A stretch of DNA of 53,454 nt, taken from the NCBI GenBank assembly GCA_041859475.1, contig JBHEKO010000545.1:1-53454 (forward strand), written 5' to 3'. This DNA comes from Candidatus Hydrogenedentales bacterium. GTDB lineage: Bacteria; Hydrogenedentota; Hydrogenedentia; Hydrogenedentales; SLHB01. This document shows positions 39,150 through 53,250 of this stretch, one piece after another. Position 1 is the first letter of the stretch. Every line of letters starts with the position of its first letter. Position numbers and translations under genes: made by a program. Below the pieces are notes generated by a model. The model saw only the letters and a list, made by a program, of their open reading frames with translations, did no database searches and was not told the DNA's origin.

Positions 39150-39166
39150 CACCCAAGTTCCCCTAG

Positions 39167-39273
<107 letters not shown>

Positions 39274-39356
39274 CTCTTACCCCCCCTCCGCGTTACTCTT
39301 TGCCTGTAAACCTTTTGCCGTCCCGGCACGTTCTCTACTCTGGAAGACATATCCGA

Positions 39357-39955
39357 ATGGATTGGGCACATAGGGGTGACGAAGACCTGGCCCTGGCTCA
39401 CAAAGCCGGGGACACCCTTGCATTTGAAGAATTGGTCCGCAGGCACCAGGGGCGCGTTTACGCAATCGCCTATCGCATTACCGGCAATCGCGAAGACGCC
39501 CTCGATGTCGCCCAGGAAGCCTTCGTGAAGGCTTTTCGCAAGATTGACGCGTGGCAGCCCGTCGGCGGTTTTCTCCCATGGTTGCTTCGGTTGACGGTTA
39601 ATCAGTCAATTGACGCCCTGCGACGGAAGAAACGCAGACGTCATGAGAGCTTGGATAACGTAGCCGTCGAGGCTTGGCCGTCGCGGAGAACACCGCCCCG
39701 GGGAGCGACACCGAGCGCTGTGTGCGAGCCGGCGAAATCGCCGTCCGTGTGCAGCAAGCCCTTGAAGTACTGTCGCCCTCGCAACGGTCCGTCTTCGTGA
39801 TGCGCCATTACGAAGGCCTCCAACTGGCGGAGATTGCCGCCGTACTCGGATGTACCGTGGGCAGCGTGAAGGTGCACCTCTTCCGGGCCCTTCGGAAGTT
39901 GCAGACGCAATTGAAAGATTTGACCGGCCACGAGGTGACATCGAAAGACGGATGA
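39357..39955 (+). pseudogene. ECF sigma-70 factor interrupted by a frameshift (sigma2 and sigma4 in different frames)
   Basis: Region 2 'AFEELVRRHQ...DALDVAQEAF...PWLLRL..N..ID' is in the frame of 39357. Region 4 'LSPSQRSVFVMRHYEGLQLAEIA..LG..VGSVKVHLFRA' is in the frame ending 39955. The span is 599 nt (3n-1), with the shift after 39658. Confidence 0.85.
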
Positions 39956-39995
39956 CCACCCCGTGTGCAATTGCGACCCAAAGAGGATTCATTCC

Positions 39996-41045: not shown

Positions 41046-41142
41046 GCGCCAGGGGGTCTTGGGGGATACGTTGAATCCTCGGCGAATTGCAGGATCGTCC
41101 GGGGTTTGATAAGATCTTGATATACAACGAGTTCTTTCATTT

Positions 41143-42906
41143 TTGGAGCGTCTACTCTTGGCTGTTGAATCCGCCTTCGAGAAACAACTTCTCCGCGACG
41201 CCGTGGTCGACGAGGCGCGCCTCGTTCGCGCGCGGCAGGAAGCCGCCGCGAAAGGCATCGCCCTCATGGATGTCCTCGTCCAAACCGGCTGTGCAACGTC
41301 GGAGGCCCTCTACCGCGCCCTTGCGCAATTCTGCGAAATGCGGTTTGTGTCCCCCTCGAAAATTGAAGTGCCGCCCGAGATCGTCGCCCGCGTCCCGGCC
41401 CGCTTTGCAACCCACTATCAGTTCGTGCCCATTCAAGATCGAAACGGTACCCTCGTCGTCGCCGTATGCGATCCGCTCAATCGTCATTTGCTCGACGATA
41501 TTCGCATGGTGCTCAAGCAACGCGTCGAGGCCGTCGTCACCACCCCCGAGGAAATCACGCGCGCCATCAAAGCCCTCTATGGCGTTGGGGCCGATACCGT
41601 AGAAAAGATCCTTAGCGATTCCGAAAGCGTCGGCTCGATTGTCAGCCTCGATATTGCCAACGCGGGTTCCGACCTCGGCGACGAAAGCCTCGACGCCTCG
41701 ATCATCAAATTCGTAAACGAACTCATCGCCGAAGCCATTCAAACGGGCGCTACCGACGTTCATCTGGAGCCCTTCGAAGATCAACTGCGCCTGCGCTACC
41801 GTATCGACGGCATCCTCCACGCCGTCCCTACGCCGCCCAGCATTCGCGGTTTCCATCCCGCGATCGTTTCGCGCATCAAGATAATGGCCAATCTCAACAT
41901 CGCCGAAAAGCGCCTCCCTCAAGACGGAAAGATCCGCGCCTCGCTCGGCGAAGATCAGTTCGACCTGCGCGTCTCCGTGCTCCCGTCCGCGCACGGCGAA
42001 ACGGTCAACCTCCGCATACTCAACCGTTCTTCGATGTTCATGACCCTCGAACAACTCGGGTTCCTCGAAGAAGATTTGCTCCAATTCAACTCGTTTCTCT
42101 CGCGCCCCCACGGCATGATTCTCGTCACGGGCCCAACCGGCAGCGGAAAAACGACGACACTCTACGGCGCGCTCAGCAAGCTCAACAAGCTCGAACACAA
42201 GATCATCACCATCGAAGACCCGATCGAATACCAACTCAAAGGCATCACGCAGATGCAGACCTTGCCCCAGATCGGCTTCGACTTCTCCACGGCCTTGCGC
42301 TCCATGCTGCGCCACGACCCCGATATCATGCTCGTCGGAGAAATCCGCGACTTCGAGACCGCCGAAATGGCGATTCGATCCAGCCTCACTGGCCACTTGG
42401 TATTCAGCACCTTGCACACCAACGACGCCGCAGGCGCCGTGACGCGCCTCACCGACATGGGTGTCGAACCGTTCCTGATCGCCAGCACGATGATCGCTTC
42501 GCTTGCTCAGCGCCTCGTGCGTCGCCTGTGCCCGCAATGCGCCGAGGCTTTCACGCCCGACCCATTCGCAATTGCCCAAGTCGGCATGGACGCCACCATG
42601 GCGAAGTCCGCCAAGTTCATGCGCGCCAAAGGCTGCGAGGCTTGCCGCCATACGGGGTACCGAGGCCGCATCGCCATCTACGAAATCCTGCCGTTCACCA
42701 CAGCCATCAAAGAGATGACGATCCAACGCGAGCCATCGACGCACATCAAACGAAAAGCCATGGAACTCGGCATGCGCACCCTGCGCCACTCCGGCTGTGT
42801 CCGCATCGCCCAGGGACTCACGACCTTCGAAGAAGTGCTGCGCGTAACCGCCGAGTCCGACGCCTTCGACGACCCAGAGACTGCAAATGCCTCAGTACCA
42901 GTATGA
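41143..42906 (+). CDS. gspE: Type II secretion / pilus assembly ATPase GspE/PilB
   Basis: Walker A GPTGSGKTT, 'ITIEDPIEY', 'LRHDPDIMLVGEIRD', His box 'GHLVFSTLHTN', Cys motif CPQC...CEAC. Confidence 0.95.
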   Translation: MERLLLAVESAFEKQLLRDAVVDEARLVRARQEAAAKGIALMDVLVQTGCATSEALYRALAQFCEMRFVSPSKIEVPPEIVARVPARFATHYQFVPIQDRNGTLVVAVCDPLNRHLLDDIRMVLKQRVEAVVTTPEEITRAIKALYGVGADTVEKILSDSESVGSIVSLDIANAGSDLGDESLDASIIKFVNELIAEAIQTGATDVHLEPFEDQLRLRYRIDGILHAVPTPPSIRGFHPAIVSRIKIMANLNIAEKRLPQDGKIRASLGEDQFDLRVSVLPSAHGETVNLRILNRSSMFMTLEQLGFLEEDLLQFNSFLSRPHGMILVTGPTGSGKTTTLYGALSKLNKLEHKIITIEDPIEYQLKGITQMQTLPQIGFDFSTALRSMLRHDPDIMLVGEIRDFETAEMAIRSSLTGHLVFSTLHTNDAAGAVTRLTDMGVEPFLIASTMIASLAQRLVRRLCPQCAEAFTPDPFAIAQVGMDATMAKSAKFMRAKGCEACRHTGYRGRIAIYEILPFTTAIKEMTIQREPSTHIKRKAMELGMRTLRHSGCVRIAQGLTTFEEVLRVTAESDAFDDPETANASVPV

Positions 42907-44098
42907 GGTGAAGAAGGGCCCCGGTCAGGCCACGACCGGCGTCCTCGAAGCCGAAAGCCAGCGCGCCGCATTGGCCCGTCTCCGCGACATGGGCTATTTC
43001 CCCATCTCCATACGCGAGTTCACCGGCGATGCCAAACAAGACGCCATTAAACGCGCCATCCTTCGAATCAGCCTCAAGGATCGCAACATCTTTTTCCGCC
43101 AACTCGCAAACCTGATCGAGTCCGGCATGCCCCTGACCCGCGCCCTATCGACCATCGTGCAGCAGAACACGAATCCAAAGCTCATCGCCGTCGTCGAACA
43201 AATCCGCGACGAAATCCAAAAGGGCAGTACCCTCACCGAAGCCCTCGAACGGCATCCTCGCGTCTTTCCGCCCATGCACGTGAGCCTCATTCACGCCGGA
43301 GAAACCGGCGGCATGCTCGAAGAAGTCGTGTGGCGCATTGTCTCCTTCGGCGAACGGGACGAAGAACTGCGCGGCACCGCGATCTCCGCCATGATCTATC
43401 CCGTCTTCCTGCTCCTGATGGGGACCGCCGCAATCTTCATTCTCGTCTCTTTTGTGTTTCCTCAATTCGTCGGGCTATTTGATGACTTCGAAGTAGAGCT
43501 CCCGATGATTACCCAAGTAGTCCTTGCGCTTTGCACGTTCATGTCTCACTTCTGGTGGGCCGTGCTGCTTGCCTTTGCGCTTGTCGTTGCGGGCCTTGTC
43601 TCCTATTGGCGCAGCGCCGCGGGCCGCCTCCAGATCGATACGGTTGCGCTGCGCGTCCCCCTCGTCCGCACGATTGTCCAGAAATATGTCATGGCCCAAT
43701 TCGCGCGCACGCTCGGAACCTTGCTCGACAACGGCGTTCCCATCCTGCGCTCCATTCGGATTACCAGCGATACCCTCAGCAACAAAGCCATCGCCGCCGA
43801 ACTCGCGATCATCGAAGATCGCGTCTCCGAAGGCGATAGCATCAGCTCCGGACTCAAAGACACCAAGCACTTCCCGCCGATGGTCGTAAACATGTTTGCT
43901 GTCGGCGAGGAAGGCGGACGCCTCGGCGCCGTCACGAAGCGTATGGCCGACGCTTACGACATCGAAGTCGAACGCGCCGTCAAGGCCATGACCGCCCTCT
44001 TCGAACCTATCATGATCGTGATTATGGGCGGAGTCATCGGGACACTGGTGATCTCCATGTTGTTGCCCATTCTGACCTTGAGTTCTCACGTGAAATAA
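42887..44098 (+). CDS. gspF: Type II secretion inner-membrane platform protein GspF/PilC
   Basis: 'FFRQLANLIESGMPL', 'AGETGG.L', 'SAMIYP', second repeat 'FARTLGTLLDNGVPI', 'GEEGG.L', 'LFEP'. Confidence 0.95.
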   Translation: MPQYQYEVKKGPGQATTGVLEAESQRAALARLRDMGYFPISIREFTGDAKQDAIKRAILRISLKDRNIFFRQLANLIESGMPLTRALSTIVQQNTNPKLIAVVEQIRDEIQKGSTLTEALERHPRVFPPMHVSLIHAGETGGMLEEVVWRIVSFGERDEELRGTAISAMIYPVFLLLMGTAAIFILVSFVFPQFVGLFDDFEVELPMITQVVLALCTFMSHFWWAVLLAFALVVAGLVSYWRSAAGRLQIDTVALRVPLVRTIVQKYVMAQFARTLGTLLDNGVPILRSIRITSDTLSNKAIAAELAIIEDRVSEGDSISSGLKDTKHFPPMVVNMFAVGEEGGRLGAVTKRMADAYDIEVERAVKAMTALFEPIMIVIMGGVIGTLVISMLLPILTLSSHVK

Positions 44099-44152
44099 CA
44101 GGGGTTTCCCCAAGAAGCCAAATGCACGAACAAACAAATGCGATGAGAGATA

Positions 44153-44196
44153 GCGGAAACCAGGTGTCCCTGCTTTCCGCGTCCACGGATAAGTTA
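44153..44196. repeat. Palindromic intergenic element, copy A (upstream of gspG)
   Basis: Hairpin GCGGAAA-C-CAGG-TGTC-CCTG-C-TTTCCGC, then ATAAGTTA. Shares the 17-mer TGTCCCTGCTTTCCGCG with copy B. Confidence 0.8.
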
Positions 44197-44240
44197 CAGT
44201 CGACACGACTTACTTTTGACTAGCCTGGAGATAGCGAACG

Positions 44241-44630
44241 ATGAATGAGAAGAGCGGGTTTACACTAATCGAGTTGCTTCTGGTGATGGTGATCATCTCC
44301 ATCCTTGCCGGAGCCGTGGCGTTCAGCGTCACGGGTCGAAGCACCCAGGCGCGAAGGACACGCGCGCAGGCCGATCTGTCCACGTACCAGCGTGCCATCG
44401 AGGCCTTTGGCCTCGAACACAACGACAAGTATCCCAAGACCCTCGATGACCTCGCCACGCCCGATGCCAAGACCGGCATCAAGTACATCGAGAAGATTAA
44501 GAACGATCCGTGGACGAATCCCTACGTCTTCAACGTGCCCGGCAAGGGCAACAAGTACGACCTATTCTCCCGTGGACCCGACGGCCAATCCGGCACCGAT
44601 GACGACATCTCCGTGTGGGATATCGAATAG
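44241..44630 (+). CDS. gspG: Major pseudopilin GspG
   Basis: Prepilin site G|FTLIE and T2SS-G C-terminus 'DPW.NPY...PG....YDLFS.GPDG..GTDDDI..W'. Confidence 0.93.
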   Translation: MNEKSGFTLIELLLVMVIISILAGAVAFSVTGRSTQARRTRAQADLSTYQRAIEAFGLEHNDKYPKTLDDLATPDAKTGIKYIEKIKNDPWTNPYVFNVPGKGNKYDLFSRGPDGQSGTDDDISVWDIE

Positions 44631-44682
44631 GCGAGAATCATTCAGTGATTGTTCATTCAATCCCAAAGTATGCGGCGAGAGA

Positions 44683-44771
44683 GCGCGGAATACAGGGACT
44701 GACACAAGCGCAGTCCGCCTCAGCGGACGGAGACGTGTCTGTCCCTGCTTTCCGCGCCTTCGAATAAGTTA
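44683..44771. repeat. Palindromic intergenic element, copy B (downstream of gspG)
   Basis: 23-nt arms GCGCGGAATACAGGGACTGACAC / GTGTCTGTCCCTGCTTTCCGCGC (20/23 complementary) enclose the hairpin GTCCGC-CTCA-GCGGAC; ATAAGTTA follows at the same spacing as in copy A. Confidence 0.85.
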
Positions 44772-44802
44772 TGACTTGTACGCATAAGAACCGCCGAGAC
44801 AA

Positions 44803-45315
44803 ATGAACGCTCCCAAACGAACATCCTCCAACGCCGGCTTCACGCTGATGGAACTCATCATCGTGATGACGATCATCGCCATCATGTCCGCCACGGTCGT
44901 GCCCATTTATCACGGTTCCGTCTCATGGGTCCAGCGCGACCGAGCCACGCGCGATTTCGTCGCCCTCATGAAATACGCCCAGGAACGCGCCATCATCGAT
45001 ACCGTCGAGTATCGCTTCTACATGAACGCCGATAAACGCGCCTACTGGGTTATGCGCCTCGACAAAGTTGAAGACGACGGCGAAAAGCTGTTTGCGCGGC
45101 CCGAGGAAGGCGAGGGGATCGTGCGCCGTCTTCCAGAGACGATTGCGCTCAAGAAGCCCAAAGCCCATTTAGACAAGAAAGCCAAGGCCCACTACATTTC
45201 CTTCTTTGGAAGCGGCGCGTGCGACGAGGCCAAGGTCGAACTCATCGTCGACAAGCGTCAGAAGATCACCATCGACACGAAGGGCCGTCTTGGCCAGTTC
45301 GAGGTGAAATCGTGA
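44803..45315 (+). CDS. Minor pseudopilin (GspH/FimT-like)
   Basis: G|FTLME prepilin motif and 'ALMKYAQERAI' helix; position after gspG. Confidence 0.85.
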   Translation: MNAPKRTSSNAGFTLMELIIVMTIIAIMSATVVPIYHGSVSWVQRDRATRDFVALMKYAQERAIIDTVEYRFYMNADKRAYWVMRLDKVEDDGEKLFARPEEGEGIVRRLPETIALKKPKAHLDKKAKAHYISFFGSGACDEAKVELIVDKRQKITIDTKGRLGQFEVKS

Positions 45316-45887
45316 ACGCCCGTAGCGATCGCTCGAACGCGAGAGTGGGGGATAGGTCTGCTTCCTGCTCCCATTGTGGTGCAGGCTTCCAGCCTGCCGC
45401 CCTACAACCCGCCGGCTGGATACTGATCGAAACCCTCGTTGCGCTCGTCGTCCTGAGCATCGGCATCGTGGCCGCCAACCGCGCCCTTGGTGAATCTCTT
45501 TTCACCCGCGCCATGGCCCAGGACTATACGCAGGCGCGTTTCTTCCTCGAACAGGTCATGTCCGAGTTGGAGCTTCAACCTGTGCTCGCGGAGAACAGCA
45601 CGGGCAAAGGCGATTTCGGCAAGGACTTTCCTCGCTTCAATTACAAGTGGGCCGTCACTCGCTACGATCTTCCCGTTCCGCGGATTCCTCCGGAGATTCT
45701 CTTGAACTTCCCGAATGGCGTCCAATTGCCCGTTCCCTATCTCGGCAAGATCTCCGCGACTGTCTCATGGACGCGCCGCGAACAGACGTTCACGCGCACC
45801 GTGGAAACCCTCATTGGCCCCGAACGACTCTTCGTCTACGAAAAGGCTGTGGAGCAAGGTGAATCACCCCAGGCACAACAGAAATAG
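45312..45887 (+). CDS. Minor pseudopilin (GspI/PilV-like) with unusually long leader
   Basis: GTG start in a GTGA overlap; G|WILIE prepilin-like site at 45414-45431; hydrophobic helix follows. Confidence 0.8.
   Translation: MNARSDRSNARVGDRSASCSHCGAGFQPAALQPAGWILIETLVALVVLSIGIVAANRALGESLFTRAMAQDYTQARFFLEQVMSELELQPVLAENSTGKGDFGKDFPRFNYKWAVTRYDLPVPRIPPEILLNFPNGVQLPVPYLGKISATVSWTRREQTFTRTVETLIGPERLFVYEKAVEQGESPQAQQK
45375..45397. repeat. REP-like palindrome inside the gspI-like coding leader
   Basis: TGTGGT-GCAGGCT-TCC-AGCCTGC: perfect 7-bp stem with a GTGG-type foot. Confidence 0.65.
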
Positions 45888-46644
45888 AGCCAGGCAGGGT
45901 TTCACCCTGGCCGAGCTGCTTGTGGCAACCACCATCGTCACCATTGTGATGACGGCGCTTTTCACTGCCTACAGTTCGTCCATTCGTCTCTGGCGTATCG
46001 GCGAATCGAATCTGCGAACCTACCAAGACGCACGCACGTCCCTTAGCATCATCAGGCGAGAACTCCAGAACATTGTGCCCGGCGCCATCCACCTCATGCA
46101 GGGAACTGACGACGAACTCGAGTTCTTTGCCGTGGTCCCCCCGATGGATGTTGAAGAGGGCTCTGGCCCGAGGACGATGTGGGTGCGGTACCGCATCAAG
46201 AAAGGCTCCGCAAAGACCGGGGCCACCCTGGTGCGCGAAGAGCGCGTCGTAGAGAGTTCGCTTCCGCCCGCGCCTCCCAAGGACGGCGAGATCGACAAGT
46301 CCATCATCAAGCTCGGCAACGAACGCCAATTCGACCTGGCCGAACACGTCGACGACTTCGTCATTAAGTACTACTGGCTTCCTCCGAAAAGTGAATTGAA
46401 GGAAATCGATCCCTCGCTACCCCCGGCTCCTATCAAGTTCATTGTGCTCGATGAACTCAAAGAAGGCATGGGAATGCCGCAAGGTATTCGCATCGAACTG
46501 ACGCTCGAGGACGCCACCGTCTCAAAGAAATCCAAGGCACAGAAGACCACCTTCACGACGATGACAGCCTTTCGTGGCCCCACATCCGAAATCGACCGCG
46601 ACTCATTTGAGAAGGAAGGAGGGCTACTGGATGCGGGCGCATAG
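45859..46644 (+). CDS. Minor pseudopilin (GspJ/PilW-like)
   Basis: GTG start 45859 (MNHPRHNRNRARQ) with G|FTLAE motif; position between I and K. Confidence 0.85.
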   Translation: MNHPRHNRNRARQGFTLAELLVATTIVTIVMTALFTAYSSSIRLWRIGESNLRTYQDARTSLSIIRRELQNIVPGAIHLMQGTDDELEFFAVVPPMDVEEGSGPRTMWVRYRIKKGSAKTGATLVREERVVESSLPPAPPKDGEIDKSIIKLGNERQFDLAEHVDDFVIKYYWLPPKSELKEIDPSLPPAPIKFIVLDELKEGMGMPQGIRIELTLEDATVSKKSKAQKTTFTTMTAFRGPTSEIDRDSFEKEGGLLDAGA

Positions 46645-47614
46645 TCTCGGCTCCTCCGTCATTGACCCCAGTGTTCCGAGTCCATCCTCGGGCTACGTCC
46701 TAATCACGGTCCTGTGGGCGCTCGTCGTACTCACCGCTCTCATGGTAGGTTTTGGCCGCCGCGCCATGTTCGACCAACGCGCTGCCGCCTACTCAATCGA
46801 TCACGCGGAAGCCTACTTCAAGGCCCGCGGAGCCATCGAGATGGGCATCGCCCATGTGCAAAATGAAGTGTTCATCCAGTCCCTGTACAACAACGTCGGC
46901 CTCGAATACAGCCTCAATCTACAGACGCGAAAAGCCGACATGATGGGTGCCGGCGGCGCGTTTGCTCCCGCGGATTCGGGACTCTACGAAGGCGACGAAG
47001 CCGGGTTCGAACTCGAAGACGCCGAGTCCCGCATTTCCCTCAATACCTCCAATGAGGACATCTTCGACAACATCGAAGACCTGAGCTTCACCACCGTCGA
47101 CGCAATTGTGGAACGACAGAAAACGAAAGACGACCCGGACAAAGGCAACCCATTCCTGACCATTGATGAAGCCCGCTACCTGAAGGGCATGACCGACAGC
47201 CTGTGGGATGGGGATCAGGATTCGAAAGGACTCCGCGATCTCTTCACCATCTACGGAGACGGCCGCATCAACATCAACACCGCCTCCGAGGAAGTCCTTA
47301 AGGCTATCCCCGAACTCTCCGACGATACTCGTGATTCGATCATCGGGTACCGCCAGGGGCCCGATGGAACTATCGACACGAAAGACGACCGGACCTTCCG
47401 CACCGTTGGCGAGCTGGTCAAGAGGCTTTCCCTTAGCCCAGAGCAACTCGCGCCCATTCAGAAGTATTGTAAGTTGAGGTCGCAGGTCTATAAAATCAAG
47501 GGCTTTGCAACCGATCGACAGGGGAAGATCCGCGTCACTGCCGAAGCGGTCGTCGGAATCAAACTCGATGAAGTTACCTTCCTCAATTGGATGGAGGGCG
47601 GAATTGGCTCGTAA
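46631..47614 (+). CDS. gspK: Tip pseudopilin GspK
   Basis: G|YVLITVLW (no Glu5, typical of K), 'EDAESRISLN', 'GRININTASEEVLKAIP' and HhH-like repeats. Confidence 0.88.
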   Translation: MRAHSLGSSVIDPSVPSPSSGYVLITVLWALVVLTALMVGFGRRAMFDQRAAAYSIDHAEAYFKARGAIEMGIAHVQNEVFIQSLYNNVGLEYSLNLQTRKADMMGAGGAFAPADSGLYEGDEAGFELEDAESRISLNTSNEDIFDNIEDLSFTTVDAIVERQKTKDDPDKGNPFLTIDEARYLKGMTDSLWDGDQDSKGLRDLFTIYGDGRININTASEEVLKAIPELSDDTRDSIIGYRQGPDGTIDTKDDRTFRTVGELVKRLSLSPEQLAPIQKYCKLRSQVYKIKGFATDRQGKIRVTAEAVVGIKLDEVTFLNWMEGGIGS

Positions 47615-49094
47615 GTCCTCGAATATCGCGATTCTACAGGTAGATGGCAACGTCATCTCCCTGCTGCGATGCCATCGAAGCCCCAAAGGCGTCGAAGTTC
47701 TCGACCACATCGTCGAGCGCGGCGCGTGGTCTTCGCAAGACGACTCGCTCAAGACAGCGCTGCGCGATTTCGCCGCCACGCATCGCGTCGCCGACGACCA
47801 TTTGTATTCCGTTCTTGCACGGCACGATATGACTGCCCGAATTCTCATGCTCCCTTCGGAATCCCCCGAAGAAATCGCGGGCATGGTGCGACTGAGTATC
47901 GAGGAATATGTCCCTTATCCTCCCCACGAAGTCGTCGTTGACCAGTGCGTCTTGCAGAAGATGTCCGACGGCCAGTCGCGCGTACTCGCCGTCCTTGCCC
48001 ATCGCGACATCGTCGAATCGCACGTCGCCCTTCTGAAATCCTGCGGCCTCGAACCCGAGCGAATCTTCGTGAGCACCGCGTGCCTCGGCGCGGCCTGCGC
48101 CTCGCTCCACGCTGGTGAGCGATGGGCTCTCCTCCACCTGGGCGCCGCGGGCATCGAGGTTCTCGTCTTCAACGCCGGCCGCATCGAATTCGGCCGCGGC
48201 GTCGCAACTGCCCATGATTGGTCCGCCAACGCGGACCAGGATTTCGAGGCCATCGAAGAGCTATCCGCGGAATTGCGCGCATCCCTCTCCGCCTATCGCC
48301 GCGAGAGCGATGATGGCGAATCCGTCGAGCGCGTCTATCTCTGCTCCGAATCGGCGGAAGTCGCGCGGATCGCCCAAGTCTTGGCCGATACTTCCGGTCT
48401 GGAGTGTTCGCCTGCGCGCATTCCCAAAAACCTCTGCACAAAAGGCGACGAACTGCTGAAAGGCGTGCCCCTGATTCCCCTGGGCGCAGCCTTGGCCGCG
48501 CAGGATCGCACCCCTTCGGTCATAGGCCTCGTGCCGCATTCCCTCTCCGAAAGCCGTCAGCGCGCCTCGTTCAAGAGTAAATTCTATCGCACGGCCGGAC
48601 TCGGTGTTGCAATCCTGATCGCCCTGCTCGCGGTCTATGGACAAGCCTCTTGGCAGCGAACCACCTATATCCGCGAGCTTCGACAGAAAGCCGACCAACT
48701 CAAGCCCGTCGCACTCGACGTCGAAACGAAGAAGAAGCAACTGGGGGTGCTGCAGCGTGGCCTCGATAGACGCGGCTCCGCGCTTGAACTCTTGGCCGAG
48801 TTGGTCAAGCGTGCGCCAAGCTCCGGCCTCAACATTACCCGGTTCGCCTTTGTCCACGGTCAGAGCATCACGGTCTCCGGACGCGCCGAGACCATTACCG
48901 TCGTCGAAAACTGGATCGATACGCTGCGCGAGGCCGGGAAATCGGAAGTCCTCCAATTCGCGCGAGTCCAACCCGGCTCGCACAAGCAGGTTGAAGAGAA
49001 CGGGAAGAACGTCTGGCAATACGAAATCGTCATTCCGTTGAGCGAAGGGGAAGCTGTCGCACCAACTGGGGAGGAAGCCGTCGATGAAGAATGA
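47604..49094 (+). CDS. GspL-like protein (PilM-type actin-like cytoplasmic domain + TM + PilN-like domain)
   Basis: TTG start with GGAGG SD. PilM-like 'EEYVPYPPHEVVVD', 'LLHLGAAGIEVLVF..G.I.F.R'; TM; PilN-like 'LNITRFAF...ITVSGRA'. Confidence 0.8.
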   Translation: MARKSSNIAILQVDGNVISLLRCHRSPKGVEVLDHIVERGAWSSQDDSLKTALRDFAATHRVADDHLYSVLARHDMTARILMLPSESPEEIAGMVRLSIEEYVPYPPHEVVVDQCVLQKMSDGQSRVLAVLAHRDIVESHVALLKSCGLEPERIFVSTACLGAACASLHAGERWALLHLGAAGIEVLVFNAGRIEFGRGVATAHDWSANADQDFEAIEELSAELRASLSAYRRESDDGESVERVYLCSESAEVARIAQVLADTSGLECSPARIPKNLCTKGDELLKGVPLIPLGAALAAQDRTPSVIGLVPHSLSESRQRASFKSKFYRTAGLGVAILIALLAVYGQASWQRTTYIRELRQKADQLKPVALDVETKKKQLGVLQRGLDRRGSALELLAELVKRAPSSGLNITRFAFVHGQSITVSGRAETITVVENWIDTLREAGKSEVLQFARVQPGSHKQVEENGKNVWQYEIVIPLSEGEAVAPTGEEAVDEE

Positions 49095-49109
49095 CCCAGG
49101 AGAGCCCCG

Positions 49110-50198
49110 GTGATCGGTTTCGTCAAAAAGCTCTCTCCCTCGGAGCGCAAGCTCGCCATCCTCGCTGGCGTCTTGTTGCTTGCCTCGATCTTTGTTGTCG
49201 GCACCCTGCGTGCCCTCGATAGCTTGGCCTCCATGGATGAAACCATCTACGGCTTGCAGCAAGACCTGCTGTACTACAAGCAACTGACCGTACAGGCCGA
49301 GGCCGTCGAAAAGGCTTATCAGGCCATTGCCGCGCAGCACTCCAGCCAGTGGACCCAAGAAGAAATCCATGACCGTCTGGGCCGCGAGATCAGACGGCTC
49401 GCTGCCAAGAACCTGCCCCAACCGGGAGTGGAGGTTCCTCCCGCTCAGGCAGGCAATGTGCTCGTCGATATCCGCTCAATGCCCAGCGGAACGCTCGAGG
49501 ACAGTGGAGAAGGGTATCGCAGCTATACAATTACGTTCCGCACGGAGCAAGCTCCGGTACTGAGCCTGGCCACCTTCCTTGAACGTCTGCAACAAAGCGA
49601 TCAGGCCCTGCGCGTCGACAGCATTGATATTTCCCGTCAGCCCGCAATAAACAGCGTCACGGCTTTCATGAAGGTGACGCGAACCGTCATTGGCGCTCCT
49701 AGCGCGGAGACTCCGGTTGCCCCCCCGAAGGCCCCCGCCGAAGTGGGCAACCTCGTGCGCAATCCCGGCTTTGAGGAGTGGGACCCCCAGACCTCCACAG
49801 CCAAGGAGTGGTCCGGTCAAGGCTGCACCGTTACCCAATCTCAGGACAACGTCACCGAGGGCAAGAGCAGTCTCCGCGTCGCAGCGGATCAAGACGCCGC
49901 CGCCTTCTATCAAGAACAGAATCTTGTCGGGGGCAGCACCTACGAAGTCGTCCTCGACCTTCAAGCCGAAGCCCCGGCCAACATCACCGTGGCGAACGGA
50001 AGTGATGGCGTCCCTCTGGGTGAAGGCCAGGCCGCCCGCTCCGACAGCGCGGTCTATCGCTATCGCTTGCGCTTCACCGTCCCCGGCGAGAGTGGGGCTA
50101 CTGTCTCCATTCGCGCCCCCTACATCGTTCTTAGTACGAAGACTGCCGTTGTAACCGTCGACAATGTGTCGCTTACCCGGATGGAGGACAAGCCGTGA
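49110..50198 (+). CDS. GspM/PilO-like protein fused to a C-terminal carbohydrate-binding-module-like jelly-roll domain
   Basis: N-terminal TM and coiled coil; ferredoxin-like PilO/GspM core ('LATFLERLQQS...LRVDSIDI'); Pro-rich linker; 'NLVRNPGFEEW...W...EGKSSLRV...GSTYEV...VDNVSL'. Confidence 0.78.
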   Translation: MIGFVKKLSPSERKLAILAGVLLLASIFVVGTLRALDSLASMDETIYGLQQDLLYYKQLTVQAEAVEKAYQAIAAQHSSQWTQEEIHDRLGREIRRLAAKNLPQPGVEVPPAQAGNVLVDIRSMPSGTLEDSGEGYRSYTITFRTEQAPVLSLATFLERLQQSDQALRVDSIDISRQPAINSVTAFMKVTRTVIGAPSAETPVAPPKAPAEVGNLVRNPGFEEWDPQTSTAKEWSGQGCTVTQSQDNVTEGKSSLRVAADQDAAAFYQEQNLVGGSTYEVVLDLQAEAPANITVANGSDGVPLGEGQAARSDSAVYRYRLRFTVPGESGATVSIRAPYIVLSTKTAVVTVDNVSLTRMEDKP

Positions 50199-50656
50199 AG
50201 CGTATCCTTCTTCCGCTTGCCGTTCTCCTGTTGCTTGCGTTGGTGGCCCTGTTGCTCGTCGGCTTCTTCAAGAGCCCCGTGATTGCCGAAAAGAACCGGT
50301 TCGCCGTCGAACTCGAAGACTTGCAGCCACCCCCCTATGCCCCCGACAACACCGAAGCCGACTCTTCCGCTTGGCGTAATGACGTCACGGTGAGGGCCGA
50401 TGTCTGGGAACCCCTGGTTGCCGCAGCCGTGCAAGCCGCTCCGCCTCCCAACCTCTCCGCCTTGCTCGCTGGCGTTCAACCCAAACGCAATAAGATGGCC
50501 GACAAGATCCAGATCATCGTGGACGGCAAGAAAGACTGGTACGGACAAGGCCAACAGATAAAAGGCTGTACCATCAAGGAGATCACCGACGCAGGAGTCA
50601 TGTTTTCGCTTGTTCAGGGCGGACAGGAATACAACGTAAGCATTCCGAGACGCTAA
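50195..50656 (+). CDS. GspC/PilP-position single-TM protein
   Basis: N-terminal TM, Pro-rich linker, short beta-domain 'GQQIKGCTIKEITDAGVMF' resembling the GspC HR / PilP fold; lies directly before the secretin. Confidence 0.6.
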   Translation: MKRILLPLAVLLLLALVALLLVGFFKSPVIAEKNRFAVELEDLQPPPYAPDNTEADSSAWRNDVTVRADVWEPLVAAAVQAAPPPNLSALLAGVQPKRNKMADKIQIIVDGKKDWYGQGQQIKGCTIKEITDAGVMFSLVQGGQEYNVSIPRR

Positions 50657-50796
50657 TGGGTCCCCCTGAAGCCGTTGAAAACCGGCTGTTGAATTTTAGA
50701 AGTTTGCGCTATACTGTAAATGGTTAACGTTCGCCATGGAGCCCTGAGTGGCTGGCCAGGCAGATGCTATTCCGTCTGAATCGCGGGAGGATTGAA

Positions 50797-53250
50797 GTGA
50801 GACGTATCTGGATGACCGCAGTGCTGACCACACTCGCGGCTGCATTGACGCCCGTGTCTTGGGCGCAGCAGAGCCCCGTCACTCCCACGCCCGTACCTAC
50901 CCCCGTTGTCGATGTGGGCGCGGGCGGCGGCGGAGCCATTGTCCAGAATTTCGCTCCAGATGGGCAGGACTCCCAGAGTGGAAGGGTCGCGCAGCCCGGA
51001 GGGGGCTCTCAACCGCAAGCGACGACGCAGCAGACCAGGGGAGCTTCGGTAAAGGCCATCAAGCAGGAGCGCCGTCAAGTTACCATCGGCGGGTCTGGAG
51101 CCTTTGAGCCTATCCTTCAACGCAAAGTCGAATACGGCGATGTCCCCGATGAGGGGCAACCCATTACGCTCCTTGCCACCGACGCGGCCGTGCCCGTAAT
51201 CGAACTCCTCGACTATGTCGCGACATCGACGGGCTGGAACATCATCGCTTCGAAGGGCCTTGAGGGCTTGGCTATCCGCTTTTGGGTGAACGAAGTCAAA
51301 CCGAAGCAAGTGATGTCCGTGCTCAAGTTCAACGGCATCCATTACGAATACGATGCCGAAAGTAAGTTCCTCTACGTAATGCTGAGCGAAGAGTATCTTG
51401 CCCGGCAGTTCGGCGCGGTTGAAAGCGCCGAATTCCAGATCAAACACGCCGACGTTATCGACATGGAGACCATTCTCTCCGCCCTCACGTCCGAATCGGG
51501 CAAGCTCGTCAGCGACCCCCGCACGGGCCGTATTCTCGTGTGGGACACCGAGGCCAACATCGAAGAGATGACCAAGGCCGTCGAGCAGATGGATGTCCCG
51601 CTCGAACCGCGCGTGTTCGCCCTCAAGCACCTCGCGGCCGAAGACCTGCTTGAATCCATCCAGAGCCTTCTCTCCGAGCGCGGTCTCGCCAACTCCGACC
51701 CCCGAACGAATTCCATCGTCGTCACCGACTTGCCAAGCCGCCAGGACCAGATCGGAAAGATGCTCGAAGCGCTCGATCAGAAGCTTGAAACGCGCACTTG
51801 GACCTTGAACTACGCCGATCCGAAGACCATTTCCGAACGTATCGAAGCCGTATTACCCGAAGACACCACCGGCTTGACCATTGATGAAGTTACGCACCAA
51901 GTTAGCATGACATCGATTCCAGCCCGCATTGAGGAACTGGACGAGATGATTAAGATGTGGGACGTCAAAGGCCGACAGGTCACGATCGAGGCTTACCTCG
52001 TCACGGCCTCCAGTACCGTCATGCGAAATCTCTCGATAAATTGGTCCTACTTCGACGAAATTTCGGGCGTGCCTTTTGCCATTCAAAGCGGCAACGCCAC
52101 TCCCGATTACACTTCAAGCCCCGAGTCGGGGCAACGCGCCACCGTCGGTCGCAAGCCCTATCGTGCGTTCCTCCGCGATTCGTTCAACAATTCTCCCATC
52201 CAGGAGGTCAGCAACCCCGATGGTGGCGAGGCAGGAAAGCTCACCGGCAACTACGTCCTCGACCCCGACTTCAAAGGCAATCGCGTTGCCGCCGTGCTGG
52301 ACTATCTCGACCGAAACGGCGAGATCCGCATCCTCGCGCGACCCCGCGTCACCGTGCAAGATGGGGAAGAGGCAAGCTTCGAAAACACCCGCGAAAACGC
52401 GTACCAGACCTTCGGCTTCTCCAATACGGGCATCGTCTCAAACGATCAAGACAACGGCATTGCCTCACGTGTCTCCCCGGGGAGCGTGCAATTCGTAACC
52501 ACCGGTACCATCCTGAAGGTCAAGCCTCGCATTAATGACGATGCGAATATCCTCATGGAGATTGAGGCCGAGGATAGCACCGCCGAAGACAAGACCATCG
52601 AGACCGCCAACCTGAAAAGTACCGTCCCTGAAAAGTCTCAGAACAAAGCAACCACGATGGTCTTGGTCAACAGCGGCCAAACCCTCGTGATTGGTGGCCT
52701 TCGCTTTGCCAGTCTCACCGACTCCGTCGACAAAGTGCCCATCCTTGGGGACATTCCGTTCTTGGGCCGCCTGTTCAAGGGCACCGAGAAGGATCACAGC
52801 AATCGCGAGTTGGCTGTGTTCATAACGTCAACCATCGTGGACGAATTCACACAGCCCGAAGCGGAAGAGCTTGCGAAATTCGACGCCGAAACTGCCGACA
52901 AGTTCCGCCACTCCAAAAAGAATACGTGGGGCCGCGTCCAGGATAGGATGTCGGGCGGCGCAAACGAGCTCTCGGTCGCTCTCGGAGACAATGGCAAGTT
53001 CTACGTCGATGAAAAGACCATCACCATCGACGAGCTTCAAGCTGAATTCGACAAGGCGCGCGAAGCCAAAATTAAGCCCACGGTCTATCTCCGAGCCCAT
53101 CCAAACGCACCAGCCGGCCTTGCCAGCGAAGTGAAGACGAGGGCAGAGGCCGCCGGGCTCAAGTTCAAGCAAGAAGAAAATGCGTCGCCCTTTGTCCCCT
53201 CCTACAAGGAGGACGCGCTACCGAACGACCGTCAATCGGAAGCTCCCTGA
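50797..53250 (+). CDS. gspD: Secretin GspD/PilQ with N0 and three N (KH-like) repeats plus a C-terminal ExbD/TolR-like domain
   Basis: GTG 50797 with GGGAGG SD gives a signal peptide. 'DPRTNSIVV' N-repeats, 'QVTIEA', 'ILARPRVTVQDGEEA', 'SGQTLVIGGL', 'VPILGDIPFLGRLFK', 'ELAVFITSTIV'. Confidence 0.93.
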   Translation: MRRIWMTAVLTTLAAALTPVSWAQQSPVTPTPVPTPVVDVGAGGGGAIVQNFAPDGQDSQSGRVAQPGGGSQPQATTQQTRGASVKAIKQERRQVTIGGSGAFEPILQRKVEYGDVPDEGQPITLLATDAAVPVIELLDYVATSTGWNIIASKGLEGLAIRFWVNEVKPKQVMSVLKFNGIHYEYDAESKFLYVMLSEEYLARQFGAVESAEFQIKHADVIDMETILSALTSESGKLVSDPRTGRILVWDTEANIEEMTKAVEQMDVPLEPRVFALKHLAAEDLLESIQSLLSERGLANSDPRTNSIVVTDLPSRQDQIGKMLEALDQKLETRTWTLNYADPKTISERIEAVLPEDTTGLTIDEVTHQVSMTSIPARIEELDEMIKMWDVKGRQVTIEAYLVTASSTVMRNLSINWSYFDEISGVPFAIQSGNATPDYTSSPESGQRATVGRKPYRAFLRDSFNNSPIQEVSNPDGGEAGKLTGNYVLDPDFKGNRVAAVLDYLDRNGEIRILARPRVTVQDGEEASFENTRENAYQTFGFSNTGIVSNDQDNGIASRVSPGSVQFVTTGTILKVKPRINDDANILMEIEAEDSTAEDKTIETANLKSTVPEKSQNKATTMVLVNSGQTLVIGGLRFASLTDSVDKVPILGDIPFLGRLFKGTEKDHSNRELAVFITSTIVDEFTQPEAEELAKFDAETADKFRHSKKNTWGRVQDRMSGGANELSVALGDNGKFYVDEKTITIDELQAEFDKAREAKIKPTVYLRAHPNAPAGLASEVKTRAEAAGLKFKQEENASPFVPSYKEDALPNDRQSEAP

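What the first reader, a model, noticed from the sequence alone, without database searches (positions are those of the whole stretch)
41143..53250. Variant type II secretion system with two accessory-domain fusions and RNA-level tuning elements
Seen: complete E-F-G-H-I-J-K-L-M-C/P-D order with no recognisable pilotin, peptidase or PilT gene. The M subunit carries a CBM-like domain, the secretin an ExbD-like domain, and hairpin elements bracket gspG. Known: canonical T2SS M and D subunits lack these domains. Inference: a T2SS subtype in which the periplasmic platform binds glycan or peptidoglycan and the secretin may engage a Ton/Tol-like partner. This is the best candidate in the window for an undescribed system.
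Basis: partly seen in the sequence, partly recalled or inferred. Interest (0 to 1): 0.75.

Follow-up and report, generated by a model that had tools for sequence, protein, structure and literature searches.

The report
Hydrogenedentota type II secretion variant
This is a real type II protein-secretion operon of an uncultured Hydrogenedentota bacterium. Its inner-membrane M subunit carries an extra sugar-binding-type domain and its outer-membrane pore carries an extra ExbD/TolR-type domain. Both additions are conserved across the phylum, whereas the hairpins around gspG are copies of a common genomic repeat.

Summary
Window 41143-53250 holds a co-directional gspE-F-G-H-I-J-K-L-M-C-D operon.

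- **GspM fusion.** GspM (362 aa) ends in a beta-sandwich. Its AlphaFold model matches CBM4, CBM16 and CBM22 modules (Foldseek E about 1e-8).
- **Secretin fusion.** The secretin (828 aa) ends in a domain that passes the Pfam ExbD cutoff when scanned alone. It superposes on the E. coli ExbD periplasmic domain (TM 0.78, rmsd 2.3 A).
- **Conservation.** Neither fusion is strain-specific. 57 species-level Hydrogenedentota genomes carry the M protein. All 40 loci where the secretin is in range carry the ExbD-like tail, and 39 of them also carry the M+CBM fusion. One subclade adds a SPOR domain after the tail.
- **Outside the phylum.** A profile search of 1.84 billion representative proteins found the secretin+ExbD-like tail only in this family.
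- **Hairpins.** The hairpins flanking gspG exist, but they are copies of a dispersed REP-like palindrome. That repeat is about 18-fold over-represented in DNA, has at least 15 different flanks, and is absent from the closest contiguous relative.

The function of the two domains is inferred, not shown. The most likely role is built-in anchoring to the cell wall and envelope. Verdict: a new, phylum-wide variant of a known system, of moderate interest.

The parts
41087..41115 (+). Sigma-70-type promoter candidate upstream of gspE: TTGCAG, 17-nt spacer, extended -10 TGATAAGAT
   Evidence: The same TTGC(G/A)-N17-TGnTAA(C/G)AT arrangement recurs upstream of gspE in at least 11 related loci. The strict consensus scan did not call it. 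It is inferred from conservation only.
41143..42906 (+). gspE, the assembly ATPase, with an N-terminal MshEN domain
   Evidence: Pfam T2SSE 447 bits and MshEN 83 bits. NCBIfam GspE 607 bits (cutoff 630) ranks above PilB at 584. The true start codon is uncertain.
42887..44098 (+). gspF, the inner-membrane platform protein
   Evidence: Pfam T2SSF in two copies, 209 bits. NCBIfam GspF 389 bits, cutoff 424.
44135..44196 (+). Upstream short copy of the REP-like repeat: hairpin 44153-44180 plus the 32-nt direct repeat 44165-44196
   Evidence: The left flank resembles the flanks of other copies seen in metagenome contigs.
44241..44630 (+). gspG, the major pseudopilin (129 aa, leader MNEKSG|FTLIELL)
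   Evidence: NCBIfam GspG 95 bits, above the 88.85 cutoff. Translation.
44683..44771 (+). Downstream full copy of the REP-like palindrome: arms 44683-44705 and 44735-44757, inner hairpin 44713-44728, then the 32-nt direct repeat 44740-44771
   Evidence: The intergenic region folds at -66.8 kcal/mol, z = -5.1. Contig word depth rises from about 5 to 92 in DNA and from about 7 to 455 in RNA, with at least 15 different flanks.
44803..45315 (+). gspH-like minor pseudopilin
   Evidence: N_methyl motif. GspH is the best NCBIfam hit but falls below its cutoff.
45312..45887 (+). gspI-like minor pseudopilin (leader ...PAG|WILIETL)
   Evidence: Weak PilV and GspI hits. Start candidates. Conserved in position in all loci.
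45859..46644 (+). gspJ-like minor pseudopilin (leader ...RQG|FTLAELL)
   Evidence: N_methyl motif. Weak GspJ and HpsC hits. Start.
46631..47614 (+). gspK-like minor pseudopilin (no Glu5, helix-hairpin-helix region)
   Evidence: Pfam T2SSK 27 bits, above the 24.2 cutoff. NCBIfam GspK is the only hit, E 4.6e-13.
47568..49094 (+). gspL-like protein: a PilM-type cytoplasmic domain, a TM helix and a PilN-type periplasmic domain in one chain
   Evidence: Pfam PilM_2, PilN and T2SSL. NCBIfam PilM and the Amuc_1101 family.
49110..49742 (+). gspM core: TM helix, coiled coil, invariant QHSSxWTQEEIHDR helix, ferredoxin-like domain and flexible linker
   Evidence: Pfam T2SSM 27.7 bits against a 27.8 cutoff. 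PF04612 is precomputed in many homologues. AlphaFold model, alignment.
49743..50198 (+). CBM4/16/22-type beta-sandwich fused to the C-terminus of GspM (aa 212-362)
   Evidence: pLDDT about 90 in this domain. Foldseek against PDB: top domain-level hits are CBM4-2, CBM16, CBM22 and CBM61, E about 1e-8, target TM 0.65-0.85. One RNA contig spans 48993-50326.
50195..50656 (+). gspC/PilP-like small protein: TM helix, Pro-rich spacer and a beta domain of about 55 aa, with no PDZ domain
   Evidence: Conserved between M and D in all loci examined. Only 3 of 17 homologues hit PF11356 T2SSC weakly. No sequence match in PDB.
50764..52809 (+). Secretin core: Sec signal peptide (no lipobox), low-complexity region, three Secretin_N domains and the secretin barrel
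   Evidence: Pfam Secretin 142 bits and Secretin_N 106 bits. NCBIfam PilQ 205 and GspD 195 bits, both below their cutoffs.
52810..53250 (+). Secretin C-terminal extension: two helices followed by an ExbD/TolR-type periplasmic domain (aa 734-805)
   Evidence: Pfam ExbD 26.6 bits, above the 25.4 cutoff, when the tail is scanned alone. 23 of 30 homologous tails also hit. The seven best Foldseek hits are ExbD or TolR (8p9r: TM 0.78, rmsd 2.3 A).
39357..41045 (+). ECF sigma factor (39357-39800) and an anti-sigma-like membrane protein with a periplasmic TPR domain (39963-41045). Conserved neighbours; their link to the operon is inferred.
   Evidence: Pfam, sequence. Synteny GT2-ECF-TPR-gspE holds in about 20 loci.

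Best explanation

**Shown**
- An 11-gene gspE-F-G-H-I-J-K-L-M-C-D operon.
- GspM carries a periplasmic CBM4/16/22-type beta-sandwich at its C-terminus, joined by a linker of about 20 residues.
- The secretin carries two helices and an ExbD/TolR-type periplasmic domain after its barrel. This is the position where classical secretins have the short pilotin-binding S-domain.
- Both fusions are conserved and co-occur across the phylum.
- The operon appears in metatranscriptome contigs.

**Inferred**
- The machine works as a normal T2SS. The ATPase and platform assemble a GspG pseudopilus, tipped by H-I-J-K, which pushes folded periplasmic proteins out through the secretin.
- The two added domains are built-in envelope-anchoring modules. 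The secretin would then carry a ring of ExbD/TolR-like domains just under the outer membrane. One subclade extends this with a SPOR domain. The CBM-like domain would rise from the inner-membrane platform. Together they would tie the machine to the peptidoglycan layer.
- That job is done elsewhere by separate accessory proteins: GspA/GspB, pilotins, PilQ AMIN domains and TsaP.
- The hairpins around gspG are two copies of a genome-wide REP-like palindrome. They may incidentally stabilise or attenuate the gspG transcript, but they are not part of the conserved system.
For: - **Gene content and order:**
- **CBM fold:**
- **ExbD/TolR domain:**. The tail profile also reaches canonical 135-aa ExbD proteins at E about 1e-5 in a library of 1.84 billion proteins.
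- **Phylum-wide conservation and co-occurrence:** 63 M-protein clusters. About 98 secretin clusters share the tail. 57 loci come from different species. All 40 loci with a secretin in range have the tail, and 39 of the 40 have both fusions.
- **SPOR in relatives:** a SPOR domain (PF05036) follows the tail in one subclade. SPOR is a known peptidoglycan-binding module and is also found on the Legionella T2SS secretin (PMC9239104).
- **TolR precedent:** the TolR periplasmic domain is a peptidoglycan-associating domain (own knowledge; PDB 5by4 is among the hits).
- **No self-piloting signal:** the secretin signal peptide has no lipobox, and no pilotin gene is in the window.
- **Transcription:** RNA contigs cover F-J, L, M (one contig spans 48993-50326) and D across the barrel/tail junction.
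- **REP-like nature of the hairpins:**. They are absent in L058.
Against: - No binding partner of either domain was tested or can be deduced from sequence.
- CBM4/16/22 modules typically bind beta-glucans, xylans or mannans, not peptidoglycan.
- The CBM-like domain is the least conserved folded part of M: 29% mean pairwise identity against 50-65% for the rest.
- One lineage (L026) has lost the CBM-like domain while keeping the secretin tail. That fits an accessory or cargo-related role at least as well as a structural anchor.
- The ExbD periplasmic domain is best known for binding a TonB peptide by strand addition (8p9r and 8vgc). That would favour a protein partner over peptidoglycan.
- The tail profile finds no ExbD or TolR chain in PDB by sequence alone, so the homology is remote.
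- Several core proteins score below the NCBIfam equivalog cutoffs.
Confidence: 0.5

Rival explanations
1. The added domains mediate protein or cargo contacts rather than wall anchoring. The CBM-like domain of M would be a cargo-recruiting module. It would replace the PDZ domain that this short GspC lacks, or it would bind a polysaccharide being exported. The ExbD-like domain of the secretin would capture a peptide strand from an inner-membrane component, such as the Pro-rich GspC-like protein. That would dock the outer and inner assemblies the way ExbD grips TonB.
For: - The best structural matches of the tail are ExbD-TonB peptide complexes.
- The C-like protein has a TonB-like layout: TM helix, poly-Pro spacer and a small C-terminal domain, with no PDZ.
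- The CBM-like domain evolves fast and is dispensable in L026, as expected for a cargo-facing module.
- A GT2 glycosyltransferase is a conserved neighbour.
- ExbD-type domains are reused as modules in FecR- and BlaR1-type periplasmic proteins, together with TonB_C.
Against: - No complex prediction or covariation test could be run.
- The SPOR addition in one subclade points to the wall.
- No candidate cargo was identified.
- The gspE promoter is separate from the GT2 gene.
Confidence: 0.25
2. The secretin's ExbD-like domain would engage a Ton/Tol-like proton-motive-force stator, so that pore gating or secretion is energised from the inner membrane.
For: The domain family is that of ExbD/TolR.
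Against: - The domain sits at the C-terminus of an outer-membrane protein.
- It lacks the N-terminal TM helix with the conserved acidic residue through which ExbD/TolR sit inside the ExbB/TolQ pentamer (sequence).
- No exbB, tolQ or tonB gene lies in the window or in the conserved neighbourhood.
Confidence: 0.07
3. The locus encodes a type IV pilus-like surface filament, used for adhesion or motility, rather than a secretion system.
For: - The L-like protein scores better as PilM+PilN than as GspL.
- The secretin scores slightly better as PilQ than as GspD.
- GspE and PilB scores are close.
Against: - GspG passes the GspG equivalog cutoff.
- A GspK-type cap protein is present.
- GspE and GspF rank above PilB and PilC.
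- The major subunit is only 129 aa.
- There is no PilT in the locus.
Confidence: 0.1
4. The hairpins are dedicated regulatory elements. A protective or attenuating stem-loop would set the major pseudopilin above the downstream minor pseudopilins.
For: - The stem-loop after gspG is very stable.
- Unrelated large hairpins occupy the same F-G or G-H gaps in several other lineages: L002, L004, L010, L009 and L021. This suggests that structure at this position is repeatedly tolerated or favoured.
- The repeat is over-represented more strongly in RNA than in DNA contigs.
Against: - The sequence is a dispersed repeat with many unrelated flanks.
- It is absent from the nearest contiguous relative, whose gaps are 32 and about 80 nt.
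- There is no T-tract.
- Contig depths show no clear step between gspG and gspH.
- These are among the few sizeable intergenic gaps in the operon, so inserts are expected to land there.
Confidence: 0.1

Closest known systems
Classical proteobacterial T2SS (Gsp/Pul/Out/Eps/Xcp)
   Same: The core parts, and the G-to-M order, match the classical clusters: GspE with an N-terminal domain, GspF, GspG, the H-I-J-K tip set, an L-M pair, a C-like protein and a multi-N-domain secretin. There is no retraction ATPase.
   Different: - M has an extra CBM-type domain.
- The secretin has an ExbD/TolR-type domain where the S-domain tail would be.
- C is short and lacks PDZ or coiled-coil domains.
- L looks like a PilM-PilN fusion.
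- The secretin gene is last rather than second.
- There is no gspO, gspN, gspA/B or pilotin gene in the locus.
- Most subunits fall below the NCBIfam equivalog cutoffs.
Peptidoglycan-anchoring accessories of secretin machines: GspA/GspB (ExeA/ExeB, OutB), Legionella LspD N-terminal SPOR, PilQ AMIN domains, TsaP LysM
   Same: The proposed job is the same: fixing a secretin channel in the cell wall and envelope. Relatives of this secretin even carry a SPOR domain (PMC9239104).
   Different: Here the candidate modules are fused to the core subunits. They also belong to other fold families, ExbD/TolR-type and CBM4/16/22-type, and they sit at the C-termini. Binding to peptidoglycan was not tested.
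ExbD/TolR periplasmic domain (Pfam PF02472; PDB 8p9r, 8pek, 5by4, 2pfu)
   Same: The fold matches, with a borderline-significant sequence match. The core GxxG...L...P pattern is conserved.
   Different: There is no transmembrane helix and no ExbB/TolQ context. The domain is attached to an outer-membrane protein, so it cannot be a stator subunit.
CBM4_9 / CBM16 / CBM22 carbohydrate-binding modules (Pfam PF02018)
   Same: It is a beta-jelly-roll with the N-terminal 'NxxxNxxFExW' strand. Foldseek gives E about 1e-8, and PF02018 is recorded for some homologues.
   Different: It is attached to a secretion-platform subunit instead of a glycoside hydrolase. The window protein itself gave no PF02018 hit at E <= 0.01. 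Ligand-binding residues could not be identified.
REP / MITE-like extragenic palindromes (for example the E. coli REP between malE and malF)
   Same: It is a short, imperfect palindrome that lies between genes, is present in many copies with unrelated flanks, and is abundant in RNA.
   Different: Its sequence is unrelated to described REP families, and no Rfam match was found. No RAYT transposase is in the window. Copy number is known only from metagenome contigs.

Membership tests
Type II secretion system (T2SS, type IV filament superfamily) | GspE-type assembly ATPase and GspF platform protein | tested here: met
   Pfam T2SSE 447 bits and T2SSF 209 bits. In NCBIfam, GspE and GspF are the top hits, ranking above PilB and PilC, although slightly below the equivalog cutoffs.
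Type II secretion system (T2SS, type IV filament superfamily) | Short major pseudopilin GspG with a prepilin leader | tested here: met
   TIGR01710 scores 95 bits against an 88.85 cutoff. The leader is G|FTLIELL.
Type II secretion system (T2SS, type IV filament superfamily) | Minor pseudopilin set H-I-J-K, including the GspK cap | tested here: met
   Four consecutive genes carry prepilin-type leaders. K hits Pfam T2SSK above its cutoff and NCBIfam GspK only. The identities of H, I and J rest on weak hits and on gene order.
Type II secretion system (T2SS, type IV filament superfamily) | GspL/GspM inner-membrane pair | tested here: met
   L matches PilM_2, PilN and T2SSL. M matches T2SSM at 27.7 bits against a 27.8 cutoff, many homologues carry PF04612, and the model shows a ferredoxin-like fold. 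The match is borderline by score.
Type II secretion system (T2SS, type IV filament superfamily) | GspC with an HR domain contacting the secretin N0 domain | tested here: inconclusive
   The 153-aa protein has the expected position and topology. Only 3 of 17 homologues hit PF11356 weakly (best E 0.0068). There is no sequence match in PDB.
Type II secretion system (T2SS, type IV filament superfamily) | Outer-membrane secretin with N domains | tested here: met
   Pfam Secretin 142 bits and three Secretin_N domains. Assignment to GspD or PilQ is not resolved.
Type II secretion system (T2SS, type IV filament superfamily) | Prepilin peptidase (GspO/PilD) available in the genome | not testable with these tools
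   None is present in the 53-kb window. The rest of the genome is not available. Its presence is required by the five prepilin leaders, which is an inference.
Type II secretion system (T2SS, type IV filament superfamily) | No retraction ATPase (PilT) in the system | tested here: met
   There is no PilT-type gene in the window or in the conserved neighbourhood of the related loci. Elsewhere in the genome is unknown.
Type II secretion system (T2SS, type IV filament superfamily) | Secretion of folded exoproteins | not testable with these tools
   This needs experiments.
ExbD/TolR family (PF02472) | Periplasmic alpha/beta domain of the ExbD fold | tested here: met
   Pfam 26.6 bits against a 25.4 cutoff on the isolated tail, and 23 of 30 homologous tails hit. 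Foldseek ranks 1-7 are ExbD or TolR, TM 0.78.
ExbD/TolR family (PF02472) | N-terminal transmembrane helix with a conserved acidic residue that inserts into the ExbB/TolQ pentamer | tested here: not met
   The domain follows the secretin barrel, and only two amphipathic helices precede it. It is therefore a domain relative, not an ExbD/TolR protein.
CBM4_9-type carbohydrate-binding modules (PF02018) | Beta-jelly-roll fold of the CBM4/16/22 group | tested here: met
   Foldseek E about 1e-8, target TM 0.65-0.85. PF02018 is recorded, faintly, for homologues.
CBM4_9-type carbohydrate-binding modules (PF02018) | A carbohydrate-binding cleft and demonstrated glycan binding | not testable with these tools
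   The conserved residues found (W234, Y267, Y278, Y318, F322 and others) look like core positions. No ligand can be inferred.
REP-like extragenic palindromic repeats | Imperfect palindrome lying between genes and dispersed in many copies | tested here: met
   Word depth is about 18 times the flanks in DNA, with at least 15 distinct flanks.
REP-like extragenic palindromic repeats | Association with a RAYT (TnpA-REP) transposase | not tested
   There is no such gene among the window ORFs scanned. The rest of the genome is not available.

The most novel reading that the evidence does not exclude
The two fused domains are partners. The CBM-like domain on the inner-membrane GspM, or the Pro-rich GspC-like protein, would dock onto the ring of ExbD-like domains on the secretin. 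This would give a TonB/ExbD-style strand-capture link between the inner- and outer-membrane halves of a T2SS. It would be a new way of coupling or gating a secretin, replacing both the pilotin-binding S-domain and part of the GspC-N0 contact.
Probability: 0.12. Interest if true: 0.8.

Novelty: new variant of a known kind. Interest (0 to 1): 0.5.

Why it matters
How T2SS secretins are targeted, stabilised and tied to the cell wall without pilotins is an open question outside the Proteobacteria. Here a whole uncultured phylum appears to have solved it by fusing two extra domains onto core subunits.

That yields clear, testable constructs. It also widens the known uses of the ExbD/TolR periplasmic domain beyond stator proteins. 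Finally, it gives a sequence signature for recognising Hydrogenedentota T2SS loci that current equivalog models mostly score below their cutoffs.

Hydrogenedentota are thought to live by degrading polymers, so their main exoprotein route is ecologically relevant.

Tried and rejected
- **Metagenome scan with a 16-mer from the repeat.** It returned only single chance hits. None carried the extended 32-nt motif. The pattern was too short and the scan was wasted.
- **The search for homologous proteins with the CBM-like domain alone.** It returned nothing, not even the known M homologues, so it says nothing either way.
- **Sequence-profile searches of PDB.** The secretin tail and the C-like protein gave no meaningful hits. 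The ExbD link needed Pfam and fold comparison.
- **The TPR protein upstream of gspE as a PilF/Tgl-type pilotin.** Rejected. It has a cytoplasmic N-terminus, one TM helix and no lipobox, and it follows an ECF sigma gene, so it is anti-sigma-like.
- **The 32-nt direct repeat as a promoter for gspG and gspH.** There is no acceptable -35/-10 pair (and inspection), and the repeat is absent in relatives.
- **An ECF-type promoter in front of gspE.** Rejected. The conserved motif there is sigma-70-like with an extended -10.
- **Rfam.** No family matches the intergenic elements.
- **L001 as the closest comparator for the hairpins.** This failed because its sequence upstream of gspH is unrelated to the window.

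Full report
**What is there**

The + strand of 41143-53250 carries eleven tightly packed or overlapping genes.

- Pfam gives T2SSE+MshEN, T2SSF, N_methyl leaders, T2SSK, PilM_2+PilN+T2SSL, T2SSM, and Secretin_N (three copies) + Secretin.
- NCBIfam ranks GspE above PilB and GspF above PilC.
- NCBIfam places the 129-aa protein at 44241-44630 above the GspG equivalog cutoff (95 against 88.85 bits).
- NCBIfam finds only GspK for the fifth pseudopilin.
- The secretin sits between PilQ and GspD, and most scores are below the equivalog cutoffs.
- The five pseudopilins have class III leaders: G|FTLIELL, G|FTLMELI, G|WILIETL, G|FTLAELL and G|YVLITVL.
- The likely starts of I, J, K and L are 45312, 45859, 46631 and 47568, later than the raw ORF starts.

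The rest of the window holds trigger factor, ClpX, Lon, a GTPase, a BatA/MoxR/VWA cluster, ABC-2 transporters, three tRNAs and a GT2 glycosyltransferase. It also holds an ECF sigma gene followed by an anti-sigma-like TPR membrane protein. Nothing resembles a prepilin peptidase, PilT or a pilotin. The system is best called a divergent T2SS.

**The organism and how widespread the system is**

All named homologues of M and of the secretin come from Candidatus Hydrogenedentes/Hydrogenedentota MAGs.

A scan of one genome per GTDB species with an M alignment returned 57 loci. Their records are titled Hydrogenedentota, or are evidently mislabelled TPA bins. tblastn with the window's proteins shows the order G-H-I-J-K-L-M-(C)-D in every locus long enough to judge. 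GT2-ECF-TPR-E-F lies directly upstream in about twenty of them.

**The M fusion**

M homologues are uniformly about 350-370 aa, down to 31% identity. The AlphaFold model (mean pLDDT 83) shows these parts in order:

- a TM helix running into a long coiled coil
- a short helix carrying the invariant motif QHSSxWTQEEIHDR
- a ferredoxin-like domain
- a disordered linker of about 15 residues
- a beta-sandwich with pLDDT about 90

Foldseek against PDB puts CBM4-2, CBM16, CBM22, CBM61 and related modules at the top (E about 1e-8, target TM 0.65-0.85). 'CBM-like' is therefore correct at the fold level.

The window protein itself gave no PF02018 hit at E <= 0.01. The domain is also the least conserved folded part of M, at 29% mean pairwise identity against 50% for the ferredoxin-like domain and 65% for the motif helix. 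One lineage (L026) has a 250-aa M with no such domain.

**The secretin fusion**

After the last barrel strand (…VFITSTIVDE) every Hydrogenedentota homologue continues with a conserved stretch of about 135 residues.

- Scanned alone, the window tail passes the Pfam ExbD cutoff (26.6 against 25.4 bits).
- 23 of 30 diverse tails hit ExbD.
- The model (pLDDT above 90 in the domain) has two helices and then a beta-alpha-beta domain.
- Its seven best PDB matches are all ExbD or TolR periplasmic domains. The best is 8p9r, at TM 0.78 and rmsd 2.3 A.
- A sequence-only profile search of PDB did not find ExbD or TolR.

In a search of 1.84 billion representatives, the same profile gave 41 representatives below E 1e-30, which match essentially the whole profile. 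This is the Hydrogenedentota secretin family. Next came FecR- and BlaR1-type periplasmic proteins with one to nine ExbD domains. Canonical 135-aa ExbD proteins followed at E about 1e-5.

So the homology to ExbD is remote but real. The ExbD periplasmic domain is a reusable module. The secretin+ExbD-like combination was found only in this clade. A subclade (L002, L004, L007 and L023 type) adds a Pro-rich linker and a SPOR domain after it.

With HMMs built from the tail and from the two halves of M, all 40 loci with a secretin in range have the tail. Of these, 39 also have the M core and the CBM-like domain in one ORF. The fusions are not strain-specific, and they co-occur.

**The C-like gene**

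A protein of 153-175 aa always sits between M and D. It has a TM helix, a Pro-rich spacer (a long poly-Pro run in many relatives) and a beta domain of about 55 aa. Only 3 of 17 homologues hit Pfam T2SSC weakly. I call it GspC/PilP-like on position and topology. It lacks a PDZ domain.

**The hairpins**

The 32-mer TGTCCCTGCTTTCCGCG…ATAAGTTA occurs at 44165-44196 and 44740-44771. Each copy is the 3' arm of a hairpin. The core motif occurs in the window more often than in any of 100 shuffles. The G-H gap folds at -66.8 kcal/mol (z = -5.1). The F-G gap is unremarkable (z = -1.0).

The closest relative with a contiguous locus is L058 (GspG 83% identical). It has gaps of 32 and about 80 nt with no such element. 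Other lineages carry unrelated large hairpins in the same gaps.

I laid contigs of three biofilm metatranscriptomes and two DNA runs on the element at 90% likeness or better. In the run X3, word depth over 44685-44757 rises from about 5 to 92 in DNA. In X2 it rises from about 7 to 455 in RNA. At least fifteen contigs leave the element into different, unrelated sequence.

This is a dispersed REP-like palindrome of roughly 72 nt. Two copies, one of them short, happen to bracket gspG. A generic effect on mRNA stability is possible, as for classical REPs. Contig depths show no clear step between gspG and gspH, and contig depth is a poor measure of expression.

**Regulation**

Upstream of gspE a sigma-70-type promoter with an extended -10 is conserved across at least 11 loci. 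In the window it reads TTGCAG-17 nt-TGATAAGAT at 41087-41115. The ECF/anti-sigma pair is therefore a conserved neighbour rather than an obvious direct driver of the operon.

RNA contigs cover F to J, L, all of M in one contig (48993-50326), and D across the barrel/tail junction. This argues that the fusions are transcribed as single ORFs. DNA carry-over in the RNA libraries cannot be excluded.

**How it most likely works**

Shown:
- the parts list
- the two fusions
- their conservation across the phylum

Inferred from established T2SS biology:
- The ATPase and platform assemble a GspG pseudopilus, capped by H-I-J-K, that expels folded periplasmic proteins through the secretin.
- A prepilin peptidase must be encoded elsewhere in the genome.

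My preferred reading of the added domains is envelope anchoring, with a probability of about 0.4-0.5. The reasons are these:
- The tail sits where classical secretins bind their pilotin.
- The secretin is not a lipoprotein.
- No pilotin or GspA/B gene is in the conserved locus.
- TolR-type domains associate with peptidoglycan (own knowledge).
- A subclade extends the same tail with SPOR, a wall-binding module already known on the Legionella T2SS secretin (PMC9239104).

The CBM-like domain on a flexible linker could reach the wall from below.

The main rival has a probability of about 0.25. In it the ExbD-like domain captures a peptide strand from the Pro-rich C-like protein or another platform subunit, as ExbD captures TonB (8p9r and 8vgc). 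The fast-evolving, dispensable CBM-like domain would then face cargo or polysaccharide.

Literal Ton/Tol energy coupling is unlikely, because the domain lacks the stator TM helix and has no ExbB/TolQ context.

**Novelty**

Full-text searches found no paper on a Hydrogenedentota T2SS, on a secretin with an ExbD domain, or on GspM with a CBM. The library is incomplete, so this is absence of evidence only.

The system is a new, phylum-wide variant of a known kind. It is not a new kind of machine. Interest is moderate. Domain accretion on secretion machines is common, but the two fusions are clean, conserved and directly testable.

Noticed in passing
L001:1-725, compared with window 44099-44827: L001 is 93% identical in DNA to the window from gspH codon 9 to the end of the secretin, yet shares no DNA homology upstream of that point. 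Instead of gspG with REP copies it has two GspG-like globular-domain genes. The complete one has an ordinary TM helix rather than a prepilin leader. This is either a real structural variant at the major-pseudopilin locus or a chimeric low-coverage assembly (contig coverage 0.78).
   Followed up: partly
window 39205-39273: A heptamer tandem repeat, (ACTTCTG) x 9.9, lies between the GT2 gene and the ECF sigma gene. It is absent from L058. The same repeat is hugely over-represented in the biofilm metagenomes, with word depth in the thousands and hundreds of different flanks. It is therefore a widespread simple repeat in that community, possibly partly from other organisms.
   Followed up: partly
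window 38115-41045 and about 20 related loci: The synteny GT2 glycosyltransferase, ECF sigma factor, then an anti-sigma-like protein (cytoplasmic N-terminus, one TM helix, periplasmic TPR domain) is conserved directly upstream of gspE. A short motif (TGTAAACCTTTTGCC) upstream of the ECF gene is shared with L058.
   Followed up: partly
window 49335-49376 (GspM aa 76-89): The motif QHSSxWTQEEIHDR is almost invariant. H77, S78, W81, I86 and D88 are identical in all 21 sequences down to 30% identity. It is the most conserved stretch of M and has no counterpart that I recognise in classical GspM or PilO.
   Followed up: no
L026:1523-2275: One Hydrogenedentota lineage has a 250-aa GspM that ends after the ferredoxin-like domain, with no CBM-like domain. 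Its secretin keeps the ExbD-like tail.
   Followed up: partly
window 50812-51100 (secretin N-terminus): All homologous secretins begin, right after the signal peptide, with a conserved AQQ(S/T)P(T/V)xPxP motif. A low-complexity region of variable length (50-250 aa) follows, before the first folded domain. There is no lipobox cysteine.
   Followed up: no
window 45315-45414: The 98-nt stretch around the gspH/gspI junction is replaced by an unrelated 35-nt sequence in contigs of one RNA run and one DNA run. The blastn match to L001 also breaks over the same stretch. This is a population-level indel at the start of gspI.
   Followed up: no
L002:5284-5492, L004:5636-5845, L010:2009-2218, L009:5163-5366, L021:3500-3701: Other Hydrogenedentota species carry unrelated, very stable 200-nt inverted-repeat elements (-79 to -89 kcal/mol) in the gspG-gspH or gspF-gspG gap. 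One example is CCCCCTTCAAAGGGGGAAT…ATTCCCCCTTTGAAGGGG. They look like MITE- or REP-type inserts that recur at the same position.
   Followed up: partly
P0222, P0224, P0233, P0240, P0242, P0245, P0280: Large periplasmic proteins from unknown organisms combine FecR or BlaR1 (M56) N-terminal parts with one to nine tandem ExbD-type domains, sometimes together with TonB_C. These are multi-ExbD architectures that I have not seen described.
   Followed up: partly
window 67-3582: A 1171-aa protein carries an F5/8 type C (discoidin) domain and a domain matching the middle domain of the hydrazine synthase alpha subunit (HZS_alpha, 70 bits).
   Followed up: no
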